Source: a virus
Virus record (IMG/VR): IMGVR_UViG_3300045988_184285
Direction: 5' to 3' (one strand)
DNA: 64,000 bases
Positions 8,197-13,872 of this stretch are shown one piece after another (the first letter of the stretch is position 1; each line of letters begins with the position of its first letter). The translations under genes and the position numbers were made by a program. The notes under the pieces were generated by a model. It searched no databases. It was not told the DNA's origin and saw nothing but the letters and a program-made list of their open reading frames with translations.

Positions 8197-9168
8197 TTAA
8201 AAAACCTGGTCAAGCTTTGCGCATACGATAAAACGAGTATCGTAATTATCACTGCCGGAACAGGTAGACAAAATCAAAACCTTATCATTCAATCCAACTT
8301 CTGTGGCGTACTGATTGTAAGAATAAGCTTTCATACTTGCAATCTCTGTCAGGAAATACGAATCGTCCGGATTCGCAATGGTATAACTTGGGTCAATAGG
8401 ATAATCGGCAACAGCAAAGATTTTCCATCGTGTCTGCTGTTCACCCAAGGTAAGATAAATATACCGATGTTCCTTTGCAAAGTTGACATCGCGAAAGTAT
8501 TTCAAAACACTGAATTTCTTGTGCATACTATTTCCGTTGCTATGTCCAAAAATAACAGTTACTCTGTACATATCGTCAACATTGCTGACATTCCATTCGG
8601 AAGGAACAAAATAAGCGCCCCAGATACTTTCCCTATCGAACTCATTGTGAGTCAGGTAATAATCATCGTCTGTGGGATGCTGCAAAATGGGCTCATCTGT
8701 AACATCAACGCCGGGAACGGTTAAGTAACCAATGGTGTTTTTGGAATACGCTGGCTTTGGTGTCGGTTCCGGTTCTGAATCACTCTCACTTGAATTAGAA
8801 GACGGGATAAGAATCGAGGGAGTAGAGACGGGTTCTTCTACATCGTCGGAGATGTTTCCTGTCTCATATGCAGGGATATGATAGTAATCATACGCCTTCC
8901 ATCCAATATAGCCAATCATGGCAATAAGAACGATGCAAATTACGACCAACAAAACTGTCCAGATGGAAAATCGCCGTTTCTCTTTGTCCTCTGACGCGTC
9001 CATCGCATCCATCGATTCATTGTCATCCTCGTCATGACTTGCCTTTTGATGAGGGAAGTTTTCACCAGTTCCATCATCCTCATCATTTGGAATGTAATTG
9101 TACGCACCAAGTTCCTGCTCGAAATGTTCTTCTTCAGGCAGTGGTGGAATAATAGGTGTTTTTGCCAT
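8197..9168 (-). CDS. srtB: class B sortase (membrane-anchored transpeptidase)
   Basis: N-terminal TM; catalytic-core motifs VIFGHS ... KVLILSTCSGS ... TRFIVCAKL match SrtB His/Cys(LSTC)/Arg signature. Confidence 0.85.
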   Translation of the reverse strand: MAKTPIIPPLPEEEHFEQELGAYNYIPNDEDDGTGENFPHQKASHDEDDNESMDAMDASEDKEKRRFSIWTVLLVVICIVLIAMIGYIGWKAYDYYHIPAYETGNISDDVEEPVSTPSILIPSSNSSESDSEPEPTPKPAYSKNTIGYLTVPGVDVTDEPILQHPTDDDYYLTHNEFDRESIWGAYFVPSEWNVSNVDDMYRVTVIFGHSNGNSMHKKFSVLKYFRDVNFAKEHRYIYLTLGEQQTRWKIFAVADYPIDPSYTIANPDDSYFLTEIASMKAYSYNQYATEVGLNDKVLILSTCSGSDNYDTRFIVCAKLDQVF

Positions 9169-9179
9169 AATACATCACC

Positions 9180-10343
9180 TTATTCAGCTGCGGCAGACCG
9201 CTCGTACACATCAATGCAGTAGTTGCCCATAATCTTGTTGTACATGCACTCCTGTGCCAAAGGACCTGCCCCATAGGTATCAACGGCGTTATCGTAGTTA
9301 CTACCAATATAAGCTTTCACTTCATCGACAGACGGTTTATAGTCCTGTTCCTCTGCCAGATACTGCGCAACAAGGCTCAGTAAAACATTTTCTTCCGTCT
9401 GACTACGAAGACTTTCTGAATACTCCTCCGAGGTCTTATAATTGCTGTATGTCTGAACGAATGTCTCCAAGTCCATATTGTAGGCAGTTGCTTCGTTTTC
9501 GACATACTTCAAGTTGGTTTCAAGACTCAGGTTGACAAGGTCTGTCGTATCCTTTTTGAGTTTTACATTGTCAATGAAATACTGTTCAATCTCATTCTGA
9601 ATCTTATTCATCCGAAGATTCTCTTCAACATATTCACGAAGCAGAGCTACTGTGGTTACAGCAGTGCCGTCTTGCAGCTTGTAGCCACTCATGATACCGG
9701 CAACATCAGCATCTGTCATGCTATATTGAGAAATTTTATTAAGCGTTACATGGAAAACAGCTTCCTTGTTGGCGAGTTCGATAGTCTGCTCGCCTGTAGT
9801 TCTATCTGTTGTACTGCTATATCCATCAGGGAATGTTACCGTAACATCAAACGAATCCCCCGTGTTATGCCCGACGATTTGCTCTTCAAATCCGTCAATA
9901 AAGGTATTGGAACCGAGTTCCAAATCGTAGTCTTCTGTTGTTCCACCGGTAAAAGCAACACCATCAACCGTACCCTCATAGTCAATGTTCACAACATCGC
10001 CTTCCTGTGCGGCGCGGTCTGTTACCTCTGTCGTCAGCTTGTAATTGGACTGAAAATAATCCAACTCGCTTTGAATCTCCTCGTCTGTAACGGCGTATAC
10101 ATCTTTGCTGACCGTATACTTCTTATAATCCTTGGGCATCTTTATGTATTTGGACGCAGTCACATCACGAAAATACCCGTCATCATCAAGACCGAGGTCA
10201 TACTCAACAGCGGAAGCTGTTTCGGAGGTGGCTGTTTCCGCAGTCTCAGATGCACTTGTATCGGCCGTATCTTTACTGCACGCAGTCAATGCAATACACG
10301 CAGCACTGATGACCGCCAGAATCATTTTTGCGTTTTTCTTCAT
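9180..10343 (-). CDS. lipoprotein homologous to trigger factor (FKBP-type PPIase chaperone), predicted extracellular
   Basis: signal peptide with lipobox LTAC; GDVVNIDYEGTVDGVAFTGGTTEDYDLELGSNTFIDGFEEQIVGH... matches trigger-factor PPIase and flanking domains; start at internal ATG with AAAGGAG RBS. Confidence 0.7.
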   Translation of the reverse strand: MKKNAKMILAVISAACIALTACSKDTADTSASETAETATSETASAVEYDLGLDDDGYFRDVTASKYIKMPKDYKKYTVSKDVYAVTDEEIQSELDYFQSNYKLTTEVTDRAAQEGDVVNIDYEGTVDGVAFTGGTTEDYDLELGSNTFIDGFEEQIVGHNTGDSFDVTVTFPDGYSSTTDRTTGEQTIELANKEAVFHVTLNKISQYSMTDADVAGIMSGYKLQDGTAVTTVALLREYVEENLRMNKIQNEIEQYFIDNVKLKKDTTDLVNLSLETNLKYVENEATAYNMDLETFVQTYSNYKTSEEYSESLRSQTEENVLLSLVAQYLAEEQDYKPSVDEVKAYIGSNYDNAVDTYGAGPLAQECMYNKIMGNYCIDVYERSAAAE

Positions 10344-10355
10344 GAAAATCTCCTT

Positions 10356-10392
10356 TATAAAAATACCCCGGCAGACAGGTTGCCTACCGGGG
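10356..10392 (-). terminator. intra-operon hairpin/attenuator between secE paralog and lipoprotein gene
   Basis: GC stem ccccgg/ccgggg with inner stem, followed by TATTTTTAT on minus strand, immediately before RBS. Confidence 0.4.
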
Positions 10393-10399
10393 CAGTATT

Positions 10400-12282: not shown

Positions 12283-12558
12283 TTATCGAGCAAAGAAAGC
12301 AACGATGATTCGCATCAGAAAGGCTACAACGGCCAACTTCGTTGCAAGCCACATGAACCAATCGAGTTTGTCGATACCTTCGTCGAATACATTTGTTGCG
12401 GCAGCATCTTTTTTGTTACTGTCGCAATCCCCGTCAACATGGTTTTTCTTGATTTTGTTGCGATTAAGCACAAACAAAGTTCGAAACAAAGCCCATGTTG
12501 CAATACAGAATCCGTATACGATTAGAAGCTCGATACAGAAACTGTGCAAAGACGACAT
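12283..12558 (-). CDS. small membrane protein (2 TM)
   Basis: 91 aa, co-operonic with sec paralogs. Confidence 0.45.
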   Translation of the reverse strand: MSSLHSFCIELLIVYGFCIATWALFRTLFVLNRNKIKKNHVDGDCDSNKKDAAATNVFDEGIDKLDWFMWLATKLAVVAFLMRIIVAFFAR

Positions 12559-13235
12559 TAAGCGGATGCGCCGTTGGCGTCAGGAGTCGTATTGGAGGAG
12601 GTCTCGGCAACGGCCTCTACCGGAGTTTCCGTGACAGTCTCTGCGGGAGAAGTGATATCCCCGGTGATTGCGGGGACATTGGCATCTTCTGCGACCGACT
12701 CATTGACGGGCGCTTCAATAACCGCATCCTTGACTCCATCAGCAGTCACTTTCTTTGCTGCGATTTTTGCGAAGTGCTCATTGCGCTTTTCACGGCAAGC
12801 CTTGCAGCGGGTGGGGAGCTTGTAGTCATGGACGACATACCAGTACAGCTCGCGATTGGTAAACTGCAGCTTCTGACCGCAATCTGCGCAGGTGTCTTCC
12901 AGACCGATGTTATCCAGCCCGCGCTTCACGAAGTCGCGATGAATTTTGCGGCATTCCGGGCAGCGGTTCGGCAGAGAATAACCGTGACTCTCGAAGAAAT
13001 CGCGGTCACGATTGGTGATGTCGAATTCATGACCGCAGTCAACGCACTTGCGGGTCTCAAACACCTCATTGCTCTTTGCATCAGCTTCCTTGCGAGCTTC
13101 ATCCTCTGCGCGGCGCTTTGCGAAATCGTCACGCATACGACACTCGCGGCACAGCACCTCGCTCTCATTGGCGGTGCTGAACGGCTTGTTGCACTTCTCA
13201 CAGGTCTTGCGGAATTTCTTTGCTGCATCTTTCAT
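12558..13235 (-). CDS. zinc-ribbon repeat protein
   Basis: three CxxC...CxxCR repeats (CEKC..CREC; CVDC..CPEC; CADC..CKAC); Ala/Glu/Thr-rich tail. Confidence 0.5.
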   Translation of the reverse strand: MKDAAKKFRKTCEKCNKPFSTANESEVLCRECRMRDDFAKRRAEDEARKEADAKSNEVFETRKCVDCGHEFDITNRDRDFFESHGYSLPNRCPECRKIHRDFVKRGLDNIGLEDTCADCGQKLQFTNRELYWYVVHDYKLPTRCKACREKRNEHFAKIAAKKVTADGVKDAVIEAPVNESVAEDANVPAITGDITSPAETVTETPVEAVAETSSNTTPDANGASA

Positions 13236-13279
13236 GGTTTAAGTCTCCTTTATGGTAAAAAAATTAAAATAATGATTGA

Positions 13280-13795
13280 TTAGGCGTTGGGACCAGAAAA
13301 AGAATCGATAATTTCATCAACGTGGACGTTCAAGTCGGACTTGTCATCATCTTTCTTGGCGGGCTGTTTTACAGGAACAACGATATCAGGCTCATTCTTC
13401 TTTTCCTCCGCCGCCTTTTCTTCAACAGGCTTCTCTGCGGATTCATCCTTGGCCTTAGTGACCTCGGACGCGTTATCGGAATCTGCCTTGGCGGATTCAT
13501 CCTTATCGGCATCAGGATTCGCTTCGGTTGCCTTATCAGTATCCTTTTTCGCTTCGTCATGCTGGCGCTCTACACGGATGACATGAACGGCAGTCACAGG
13601 CGCGTGATGAATATCATCGATGCAATCGTCACAGCCGCAGCAGTCATCACAGTCATCGCAGTCGTCGTCATCATGAAGATAGCCGTCATCCTCCAACTCC
13701 TTGATGACCTCATGCTTGACATACTTGGTCGTGAGTTTCAGGGCAACGGCTGCAACGGTGGCGGCACCAATAACGGACAGAATGTTCTTCTTCAT
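13280..13795 (-). CDS. membrane-anchored acidic protein with Asp/Cys cluster
   Basis: N-terminal TM, DDDDCDDCDDCCGCDDCIDD cluster, acidic KE/D-rich tail. Confidence 0.5.
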   Translation of the reverse strand: MKKNILSVIGAATVAAVALKLTTKYVKHEVIKELEDDGYLHDDDDCDDCDDCCGCDDCIDDIHHAPVTAVHVIRVERQHDEAKKDTDKATEANPDADKDESAKADSDNASEVTKAKDESAEKPVEEKAAEEKKNEPDIVVPVKQPAKKDDDKSDLNVHVDEIIDSFSGPNA

Positions 13796-13837
13796 AAATT
13801 TCTCCTTTGACTAAAAAACAATGTTTCGCTTGGAATA

Positions 13838-13872
13838 TTTATATTATACCACATAAATATAATGTGGTCAAT
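13838..13872 (-). promoter_or_regulatory. class A promoter (TTGACC-N14-TGTGGTATAATATA) with inverted repeat CCACAT-N7-ATGTGG in spacer
   Basis: minus-strand 'TTGACCacattatatttaTGTGGTATAAT'; heads the sec/sortase operon. Confidence 0.65.

What the first reader, a model, noticed from the sequence alone, without database searches (positions are those of the whole stretch)
8197..13872. Dedicated export module: SecY-SecG-SecE paralogs, a lipid-anchored trigger-factor homolog and sortase B in one operon next to giant adhesins
One class A promoter (13838-13872) heads a tightly packed minus-strand operon. In order it encodes an acidic membrane protein with an Asp/Cys cluster, a zinc-ribbon protein, a small membrane protein, then SecY, SecG-like and SecE paralogs, a lipoprotein trigger-factor homolog and a class B sortase. 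Housekeeping secY and secE normally sit in ribosomal-protein operons, so this is an extra translocon copy. Known accessory Sec systems (SecA2/SecY2 with Asp1-5) export serine-rich repeat adhesins. Here there is no secA2, asp or glycosyltransferase gene. The channel is instead paired with an extracellular chaperone candidate and the anchoring enzyme for two huge substrates about 20 kb away. I do not know of a described SecYEG2 + trigger-factor-lipoprotein + SrtB arrangement.
Basis: partly seen in the sequence, partly recalled or inferred. Interest (0 to 1): 0.85.

Follow-up and report, generated by a model that had tools for sequence, protein, structure and literature searches.

The report
Plasmid-borne SecYEG, foldase and sortase module

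Summary
SecY, SecE, the FKBP/trigger-factor-like lipoprotein and the class B-like sortase are well supported. SecG is weaker but consistent across six orthologs. The locus is plasmid-borne (ParM, DUF4314, PIN7 neighbours). Its SecY forms a clade apart from ribosomal-operon SecY and fails the SecY2 model. No SecA, Asp or glycosyltransferase gene lies in the window or within 10 kb of related loci. The interpretation as an extra, adhesin-linked translocon holds; the novelty claim does not. Yuan et al. (bioRxiv 2026, PMC12934698) describe this hyp-SecY-SecG-SecE-trigger factor-sortase B cluster and the >7300 aa and >2600 aa proteins in Hodor megaplasmids.

What I add:
- The trigger-factor homolog lacks the ribosome-binding domain and has a lipobox, so it should act outside the membrane. 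It belongs to a family also present on the Faecalibacterium chromosome.
- Both giants carry non-LPXTG sorting signals (NKKTG, NYKTG).
- A conserved terminator hairpin separates secYGE from the foldase and sortase genes.
- Related SecY-SecG-SecE trios occur in at least three further element lineages.
- The conserved zinc-finger gene was found only among proteins closely related to it (20 clusters), several on contigs of these elements.

Function is untested.

The parts
13843..13871 (-). Sigma-70-type promoter TTGACC-17-TATAAT with a TG extended -10. A terminator hairpin of the upstream gene precedes it at 13892-13913.
   Evidence: It matches 11 of 12 consensus positions and is the best site in 7900-14200.
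13280..13795 (-). 171 aa acidic protein with an N-terminal hydrophobic anchor and an Asp/Cys cluster. Specific to this plasmid group, not part of the conserved core.
   Evidence: sequence; found only in the window-group loci L001 and L004-L006. No Pfam or PHROG family.
12558..13235 (-). 225 aa cytoplasmic zinc-finger protein with three CxxC...CxxC units, two of them PF13451. It is the conserved first gene of the core ("hyp" in the preprint). Function unknown.
   Evidence: zf_Tbcl, 40.5 bits; conserved at 51-67% identity in the two other full-module groups; only 20 clusters among 5.8 billion proteins; the AF2 model has no PDB fold match. dN/dS is 0.13.
12283..12558 (-). 91 aa small membrane protein, specific to this plasmid group.
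10918..12258 (-). SecY paralog, 446 aa, TTG start.
   Evidence: above the canonical SecY cutoffs, below the SecY2 cutoffs; pore ring and Arg357 equivalent conserved; the clade is distinct from housekeeping SecY. dN/dS is 0.04 against the sister group.
10648..10902 (-). SecG-like protein, 84 aa, two transmembrane segments.
   Evidence: full-length match, below cutoff; six of six orthologs hit PF03840; the position between secY and secE is conserved.
10400..10651 (-). SecE paralog, 83 aa. Its start overlaps the secG stop by 4 nt.
   Evidence: above the Pfam and TIGR00964 cutoffs.
10364..10394 (-). Intrinsic-terminator-like hairpin (14 bp, 8 GC, then TTTTTAT) between secE and the foldase gene.
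   Evidence: free energy about -29 kcal/mol. Conserved in the sister group with different loop bases. Absent in the L012 group.
9180..10343 (-). 387 aa lipoprotein: signal peptide with lipobox LTAC, an acidic linker, an FKBP PPIase domain and a trigger-factor C-terminal arm domain. It has no ribosome-binding N domain.
   Evidence: Cys22 is invariant in 13 homologs; pLDDT 84, residues 1-46 disordered, and the top PDB folds are trigger factors (E 2e-11).
8197..9168 (-). 323 aa class B-like sortase: acidic cytoplasmic N-terminus, one transmembrane segment and an extracellular catalytic domain.
   Evidence: The His (GH), Cys (STC) and Arg residues align with C. perfringens SrtB (5b23).
41187..63158 (-). 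7323 aa surface protein: signal peptide ending AYA|AE; MBG_2, 22 DUF11, 19 DUF7507 and CARDB repeats; C-terminal NKKTG, hydrophobic segment and KRKK.
32819..40828 (-). 2669 aa ORF, probably starting at 40765 to give 2648 aa. Signal peptide ending AYA|VE; six MBG_2 repeats; C-terminal NYKTG, hydrophobic segment and KKKK.
28056..29591 (-). Flotillin/SPFH membrane-scaffold protein, a possible accessory of the surface module. This link is an inference only.
   Evidence: Flot 39 bits, Band_7 38 bits.

Best explanation
The window is part of a Hodor-type conjugative megaplasmid of human-gut Bacillota, probably group G2. The region 8197-13872 is that plasmid's conserved surface-export module.

Proposed mechanism:
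1. The promoter at 13871-13843 drives a zinc-finger protein and a complete SecY-SecG-SecE channel.
2. A conserved hairpin after secE lowers, or separates, transcription of the next two genes.
3. The channel looks canonical and encodes no motor, so host SecA or ribosomes must drive transport.
4. The two giant repeat proteins have ordinary signal peptides and pass through this private channel.
5. On the outer face, a lipid-anchored trigger-factor-like FKBP foldase, which lacks the ribosome-binding domain, receives and folds the emerging repeats.
6. The class B sortase cuts their NKKTG/NYKTG signals and attaches them to the cell wall.

Shown here: gene identities, domain architecture, conservation, purifying selection and plasmid context. 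Inferred: substrate specificity of the channel, the external location and role of the foldase, the pairing of sortase with motif, and the purpose of the giants (adhesion or mating contact).
For: Identity as Hodor:
- The gene list and order match PMC12934698.
- The giants of 7323 and 2648-2669 aa fit the reported 7309-7704 and about 2642 aa.
- A ParM homolog is present.
- SecY is 99-100% identical to SecY on IMG/VR contigs of 240-346 kb.
- Local GC is about 44%, against about 49% in the sister group.

Functional channel:
- HMM scores for the Sec components.
- The pore ring and Arg357 equivalent are conserved.
- dN/dS is 0.04-0.13 with saturated dS.

Extra copy: the clade is monophyletic in 100 of 100 NJ bootstraps and separate from ribosomal-operon SecY.

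Link to giant surface proteins:
- The core zf-SecY-SecG-SecE-foldase-sortase is kept in three plasmid groups.
- A giant gene lies 5 kb upstream in L002.
- A more distant SecY-SecG-SecE trio sits beside a sortase and a SpaA giant in L015.
- The preprint lists these genes among the few shared by both Hodor groups.

External foldase:
- The lipobox cysteine is invariant.
- Matches to trigger factor begin near residue 120 of the solved structures.
- The fold search returns trigger factors.

Sortase pairing:
- The catalytic His, Cys and Arg align.
- Only the giants carry sorting signals, and these are non-LPXTG.
- They resemble class B motifs: (S/P)PXTG for C. difficile SrtB and NPKTG for B. anthracis SrtB.
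Against: - There is no experimental test of any step here, and the preprint offers only metatranscriptome coverage.
- L013 carries SecY-SecG-SecE without the foldase or sortase, and L011 has a truncated foldase and no sortase. The channel can therefore persist without them.
- Hodors also encode a class A sortase (preprint), which could anchor the giants instead.
- The sorting motif varies: QAPTG in the sister group's 2.6k protein.
- The sortase scores below the NCBIfam class B cutoff.
- The host is unknown: two scans of GTDB representative genomes found nothing. So a host copy of secYEG and a compatible SecA are assumed, not shown.
- Lipoprotein status rests on sequence alone.
Confidence: 0.62

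Rival explanations
1. The plasmid SecYEG is a general spare translocon. It would serve all plasmid-encoded membrane and secreted proteins (T4SS parts, lipoproteins, flotillin partners), or make export independent of the host across a broad host range. On this view it is not a lane dedicated to the two giants.
For: - L013 keeps SecY-SecG-SecE with no foldase or sortase nearby.
- The giants' signal peptides look ordinary.
- The channel's key residues are canonical.
- In the window the giants lie 19 kb away, behind partition genes.
Against: - The trio is linked to the foldase and sortase in three groups.
- It sits beside giant sorted proteins in L002 and L015.
- The preprint lists the trio and the giants among the few genes shared by two groups whose VirB4 proteins are only about 48% identical.
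Confidence: 0.22
2. This is an accessory Sec (SecA2/SecY2-like) system, and its motor and accessory proteins lie elsewhere on the plasmid.
For: It shares the logic of a second SecY linked to very large wall-anchored adhesins. Only 64 kb of a plasmid of roughly 350 kb was inspected.
Against: - The SecY2 models score 145 against cutoffs of 249.6 and 353, while canonical SecY scores 329.6.
- No SecA, Asp or glycosyltransferase gene lies in the window or within 10 kb in five lineages.
- The preprint text never mentions SecA.
- The substrates are DUF11/MBG repeat proteins with short signal peptides, not serine-rich glycoproteins.
Confidence: 0.05
3. The trigger-factor homolog works in the cytoplasm as a conventional nascent-chain chaperone for the giants, as the preprint's wording suggests.
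For: Sequence and fold matches to trigger factor are strong. The preprint calls it a trigger factor that chaperones the giants.
Against: - The ribosome-binding N domain is missing. A basic n-region, a hydrophobic h-region and an LTAC|S lipobox take its place.
- The cysteine is invariant in 13 homologs, including a chromosomal F. prausnitzii paralog.
- Residues 1-46 are disordered in the model, as expected for a signal peptide plus tether.
Confidence: 0.06
4. These are the organism's housekeeping secY and secE on a chromosome fragment.
For: SecY passes the housekeeping equivalog model.
Against: - No ribosomal protein, adk or map genes are adjacent. The neighbours are ParM, DUF4314, PIN7, Dam and many ORFs with no family match.
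- The nearest ribosomal-operon SecY is 47-49% identical.
- The same module lies on the 211-389 kb genomes the preprint curated as circular megaplasmids.
Confidence: 0.02

Closest known systems
Surface-associated gene module of Hodor conjugative megaplasmids (Yuan et al., bioRxiv 2026, PMC12934698)
   Same: Same genes in the same order (hyp, SecY, SecG, SecE, trigger factor, class B sortase). Same two giant signal-peptide and sorting-signal proteins. Same plasmid markers. The proposed model is also the same: secretion through the plasmid Sec pore, with chaperoning and sortase anchoring.
   Different: Nothing differs in gene content; the window is a member. My analysis adds several points absent from the main text. 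The "trigger factor" is an N-domain-less lipoprotein. The sorting motifs are NKKTG, NYKTG and QAPTG. A terminator lies after secE. The zinc-finger gene has very few relatives. At least three further element lineages carry a related SecY-SecG-SecE trio (SecY 55-71% identical).
Accessory Sec system SecA2/SecY2 with Asp1-5 and glycosyltransferases of streptococci and staphylococci (from established knowledge)
   Same: A second SecY linked genetically to very large cell-wall-anchored adhesins.
   Different: SecY is not in the SecY2 family. No SecA2, Asp or Gtf genes are present. The module brings its own SecE and SecG. The substrates are not serine-rich glycoproteins. The module is plasmid-borne.
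PrsA and related lipoprotein foldases of Gram-positive bacteria (from established knowledge)
   Same: A lipid-anchored PPIase-chaperone on the outer face of the membrane that folds proteins leaving SecYEG.
   Different: PrsA has a parvulin domain. This protein has an FKBP domain plus trigger-factor arms, and it is encoded next to a private translocon.
Class B sortases with non-LPXTG motifs: C. difficile SrtB with (S/P)PXTG (PMC4155245) and B. anthracis SrtB with NPKTG (PMC11987632)
   Same: Best sequence matches and an aligned His-Cys-Arg triad. The substrates end in xxKTG followed by a hydrophobic segment and a basic tail.
   Different: It scores below the NCBIfam class B cutoff. It has a 65-residue acidic cytoplasmic extension. 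Its motifs (NKKTG, NYKTG) have not been tested.
Trigger-factor paralogs lacking the ribosome-binding domain, such as PceT of Desulfitobacterium (from memory)
   Same: Loss of the N domain converts a general chaperone into a dedicated one.
   Different: Those paralogs are cytoplasmic and serve Tat substrates. This one has a lipoprotein signal peptide.

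Membership tests
Hodor megaplasmid surface module (PMC12934698) | [quoted passage not shown] | tested here: met
   described in the preprint.
Hodor megaplasmid surface module (PMC12934698) | [quoted passage not shown] | tested here: met
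   7323 aa and 2669 aa (2648 aa from the likely start). Both have signal peptides and sorting signals.
Hodor megaplasmid surface module (PMC12934698) | Megaplasmid backbone: Rep_3, ParA/ParB/ParM, T4SS, size above 200 kb | tested here: inconclusive
   ParM is present. Near-identical SecY lies on 240-346 kb IMG/VR contigs. Rep_3, ParA/B and VirB4/D4 are not in the 64 kb window.
Accessory Sec system (SecA2/SecY2) | SecY belongs to the SecY2 family | tested here: not met
   TIGR02920 scores 145.5 against 249.6, and NF009082 scores 144.9 against 353. Canonical TIGR00967 scores 329.6 against 253.6.
Accessory Sec system (SecA2/SecY2) | Adjacent secA2, asp1-3 and glycosyltransferase genes | tested here: not met
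   None in the window or within 10 kb in L001, L002, L012, L013 and L015.
Accessory Sec system (SecA2/SecY2) | Serine-rich repeat glycoprotein substrate with a long atypical signal peptide | tested here: not met
   The signal peptides are about 30 residues and end in AYA. The protein bodies are DUF11, DUF7507 and MBG_2 repeats.
Canonical SecYEG translocon | SecY, SecE and SecG family membership | tested here: met
   SecY and SecE score above cutoffs. SecG is below cutoff alone, but six of six orthologs hit PF03840.
Canonical SecYEG translocon | Hydrophobic pore ring and the conserved C5-loop arginine | tested here: met
   Positions equivalent to E. coli 82, 86, 187, 191, 278 and 408 are I or V, and the R357 equivalent is present. 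Clade-specific changes are P84 to A and loss of basic residues in the C4 loop.
Canonical SecYEG translocon | Housekeeping genomic context (secY between rplO and adk) | tested here: not met
   Compare the window's neighbours with L017-L021.
Class B sortase | Curated class B model cutoff (TIGR03064) | tested here: not met
   77.9 bits against a cutoff of 153.75, although it is the top family.
Class B sortase | Catalytic His-Cys-Arg triad and closest solved relatives in class B | tested here: met
   All nine PDB hits are class B sortases, or sortase B homologs by my reading of the entries. The GH, TC and R residues align with 5b23.
Class B sortase | Cleaves a non-LPXTG motif on linked substrates | not testable with these tools
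   The motifs NKKTG and NYKTG are present on the giants. Cleavage needs a peptide assay.
Trigger factor (Tig) | N-terminal ribosome-binding domain (Trigger_N) | tested here: not met
   The tig profile matches from position 108 only. Solved trigger factors align from residue 77-125 onward, depending on the entry. No Trigger_N hit was found.
Trigger factor (Tig) | FKBP PPIase domain plus C-terminal arm domain | tested here: met
   FKBP_C scores 61 bits. Trigger_C scores 21.8 against 22.7. Foldseek's top hits are trigger factors at E 2e-11 over about 320-340 columns.
Bacterial lipoprotein | Signal peptide ending in a lipobox with an invariant cysteine | tested here: met
   The N-terminus reads MKKNAKMILAVISAACIALTAC|S, and Cys22 is invariant in 13 homologs. 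Lipid modification itself cannot be tested here.

The most novel reading that the evidence does not exclude
A mobile element carries a self-contained export, folding and anchoring pathway: its own complete SecYEG channel, a module-specific zinc-finger factor, an extracytoplasmic lipid-anchored trigger-factor-type foldase and a sortase. This lets a broad-host-range plasmid display 7,300-residue fibres on whatever Bacillota cell it enters. The foldase would also be the first functionally placed member of an uncharacterised family of external trigger-factor paralogs that are present on Ruminococcaceae chromosomes.
Probability: 0.4. Interest if true: 0.65.

Novelty: already known. Interest (0 to 1): 0.4.

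Why it matters
A plasmid that brings a full protein-conducting channel is unusual. Extra SecY copies are otherwise known mainly from the SecA2/SecY2 systems. If the module works as proposed, very large adhesins could need a private channel, an outside foldase and a dedicated sortase, and a plasmid could supply all three. That bears on how gut plasmids spread and hold cells together. It also points to a neglected class of external trigger-factor-like foldases in abundant gut Clostridia. The discovery itself belongs to the 2026 Hodor preprint. The refinements here are leads for experiments, not a new system.

Tried and rejected
- Megablast of the locus against PLSDB plasmids and INPHARED phages found nothing. 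The tblastn hits there are housekeeping SecY genes at 46% identity or less, on records labelled as plasmids or phages.
- Two scans of GTDB species-representative genomes, one with SecY and one with the zinc-finger alignment, found no relative. The host stays unknown.
- A profile of the SecG-like family against PDB sequences gave no significant hit.
- The zinc-finger protein gave no PHROG hit, no paper mentions PF13451, and its AF2 model (pLDDT 72) has no PDB fold match better than E 0.2. Its function is unresolved.
- I followed chimeric SecY proteins (P0084-P0087: Hodor N-half joined to a housekeeping C-half) as a possible host clue or sign of chromosomal integration. The contig L025 continues into adk, map and rpoA of an Oscillospiraceae MAG. 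However, the join falls inside a 23-nt stretch that appears common to both sequences, on a contig of 2.75x coverage that starts at secY. I treat these as assembly chimeras.
- The preprint's supplementary tables are not held, so I could not check its gene lists for SecA.
- A literature search for external trigger-factor-like lipoproteins found nothing specific.

Full report
**Observation.** The minus strand between 8197 and 13872 holds eight closely spaced ORFs exactly as described.

HMM searches confirm the main assignments:
- SecY: Pfam 291.5 bits; TIGR00967 329.6 against a cutoff of 253.6.
- SecE: above both the Pfam and TIGR00964 cutoffs.
- A 387 aa protein with an FKBP domain (61 bits) and a near-threshold trigger-factor match (TIGR00115, 172 against 180.2).
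- A sortase whose best family is class B (TIGR03064, 77.9 bits, below its cutoff of 153.75).

The 84 aa protein between secY and secE matches SecG over its full length but below cutoff. All six orthologs I collected hit PF03840, with a best E-value of 7.7e-7. I therefore accept it as a divergent SecG.

The promoter is real as a consensus match: TTGACC, a 17-nt spacer and TATAAT with a TG extension at 13871-13843, directly after a terminator hairpin.

**Operon structure.** A strong terminator-like hairpin (14 bp, 8 GC, then a T-run) fills the 56-nt gap between secE and the foldase gene, and the foldase ribosome-binding site follows it directly. The same hairpin, with different loop bases, sits at the same place in the sister plasmid group. 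It is absent in a third group, where the gap is 24 nt. The foldase and sortase genes are therefore expressed either by read-through or from a weak promoter-like site overlapping the secE stop. The preprint reports SecY-SecG-SecE and trigger factor-sortase B as two co-transcribed sets, which fits.

**Context.** The neighbours are a ParM/Alp-type actin, an HTH protein, a Dam methylase, PIN7, DUF4314, a DUF1281_C protein and many ORFs with no family match. No tRNA genes are present. This is a plasmid context, not a ribosomal-protein operon.

The two giant ORFs (7323 aa and 2669 aa) are built of MBG_2, DUF11, DUF7507 and CARDB repeats. Both have ordinary signal peptides ending in AYA. They are the only ORFs in the window with a C-terminal sorting signal: NKKTG and NYKTG, each followed by a hydrophobic segment and a basic tail.

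**Already described.** A full-text search found Yuan et al., bioRxiv, 22 Feb 2026 (PMC12934698). They define "Hodor" conjugative megaplasmids of the human gut, 211-389 kb in size and in two groups.
- These genes, a 7309-7704 aa protein and a protein of about 2642 aa are among the few genes shared by both groups.
- The authors propose secretion through the plasmid Sec pore, chaperoning by the trigger factor and anchoring by sortases.

The window matches on every point. Its SecY is 99-100% identical to SecY on IMG/VR contigs of 240-346 kb, and about 90% identical to a second set on contigs of up to 389 kb. Local GC is about 44% in the window group and about 49% in the sister group. That suggests the window is G2 and the sister group is G1 (the preprint gives 44.6% and 47.1%).

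**Extra copy, not housekeeping and not SecY2.**
- The closest SecY in a ribosomal operon is 47-49% identical.
- In an NJ tree the plasmid SecYs, spanning 59-100% identity to the window, are monophyletic in 100 of 100 bootstraps.
- Together with other element-borne SecYs they branch next to Gemmiger-type housekeeping SecY of the Ruminococcaceae.
- The SecY2 models fail.
- No SecA, Asp or glycosyltransferase gene lies in the window or within 10 kb in five related lineages.
- The pore ring and the Arg357 equivalent are intact.
- dN/dS against the sister group is 0.04 for SecY and 0.11-0.13 for SecG, SecE and the zinc-finger gene, with saturated dS.

**Conserved core.** A tblastn comparison of the eight proteins with related loci shows that the core is zinc-finger protein, SecY, SecG, SecE, foldase and sortase, kept in three plasmid groups. 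The Asp/Cys protein and the 91 aa membrane protein occur only in the window group. More distant elements keep only SecY-SecG-SecE (L013), or carry that trio beside a Pfam-type sortase and a SpaA giant (L015). The zinc-finger protein has only 20 clusters among 5.8 billion proteins, at least several of them on contigs of these elements, and no structural match.

**The foldase.** Trigger-factor profiles match from profile position 108, and solved structures align from residue 77-125 onward depending on the entry. The ribosome-binding domain is therefore absent. In its place is MKKNAKMILAVISAACIALTAC|S, a lipoprotein signal peptide whose cysteine is invariant in 13 homologs. The AF2 model (pLDDT 84) leaves residues 1-46 disordered, and its top fold matches are trigger factors. 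Homologs at about 39% identity with the same architecture occur on the F. prausnitzii chromosome among metabolic genes. This is a captured member of an existing but apparently unstudied family of membrane-tethered trigger-factor paralogs. The preprint's main text does not mention a lipoprotein.

**The sortase.** All PDB sequence hits are class B enzymes, and the His, Cys and Arg residues align. The giants' motifs are non-LPXTG and resemble the class B motifs (S/P)PXTG and NPKTG. The sister group's 2.6k protein has QAPTG.

**Verdict.** The system is already in the literature, so novelty is low. The mechanism remains inferred.

Noticed in passing
window 28056-29591 (-): A flotillin/SPFH protein (Flot 39 bits, Band_7 38 bits) is encoded a few kb from the giant genes. 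It might organise a membrane microdomain for export and sorting.
   Followed up: no
window 10918-12258 (SecY) and relatives: The whole plasmid SecY clade replaces the near-universal Pro of the TM2b PYI motif with Ala. It has also lost most basic residues of the C4 cytoplasmic loop (KRvvGRK becomes GKnvGNK). That loop contacts ribosomes and SecA in known structures (from memory).
   Followed up: partly
L023 6001-7143 (F. prausnitzii chromosome CP186691.1): A chromosomal 380 aa protein annotated "trigger factor" has a lipobox and no N domain. I could not find a description of this family of membrane-tethered trigger-factor paralogs in Ruminococcaceae in the searchable literature.
   Followed up: partly
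L025 11-1354; proteins P0084-P0087: Hybrid SecY genes occur in several assemblies: a Hodor 5' half joined to a housekeeping 3' half, followed by adk-map-rpoA of an Oscillospiraceae MAG. The join lies in a 23-nt stretch that appears shared, on a contig of 2.75x coverage, so these are probably assembly chimeras.
   Followed up: yes
proteins P0071, P0073, P0074, P0077, P0088: Several database proteins fuse this SecY to unrelated sequence. In P0077 the Asp/Cys protein is joined in frame to SecY. These are either deletion variants of the module or misassemblies.
   Followed up: no
L015 1-10296; L012 18827-19747: A more distant element carries SecY-SecG-SecE next to a PF04203 sortase, a SpaA-domain giant and a bactofilin. 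The L012 group also encodes a bactofilin near the module.
   Followed up: partly
window 32768-39409 (+), 44250-47621 (+), 47799-56756 (+), 57492-60830 (+): ORFs of 1112 to 2985 aa run antisense to the giant genes. They are most likely shadow ORFs caused by the repeat composition, not genes.
   Followed up: no
window 32000-64000 against 1-32000: GC rises from about 44% to about 50% across the giant genes, and GC skew changes sign near 34-36 kb.
   Followed up: no
window 13931-14641 (-) and 26417-27055 (-): Two further cysteine-rich proteins with no family match and several CxxC pairs; the first has a weak CHY zinc-finger hit. Together with the module's zinc-finger protein, this plasmid region is rich in novel zinc-binding proteins.
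   Followed up: no
window 31983-32690 (-), 31184-31735 (-), 29956-31161 (-): An acidic lipoprotein (lipobox FVGC|G), a multi-pass membrane protein and a signal-anchored protein lie just downstream of the 2669 aa gene. The first two probably belong to the giant-gene operon the preprint reports as co-transcribed.
   Followed up: no
window 245-991 (-), 25869-26387 (-), 5593-6303 (-), 4747-4968 (-), 2011-2808 (-): Other plasmid cargo: a radical SAM/4Fe-4S protein, a Dam methylase, a PIN7 nuclease, DUF4314 and a DUF1281_C (Api92-like) protein.
   Followed up: no
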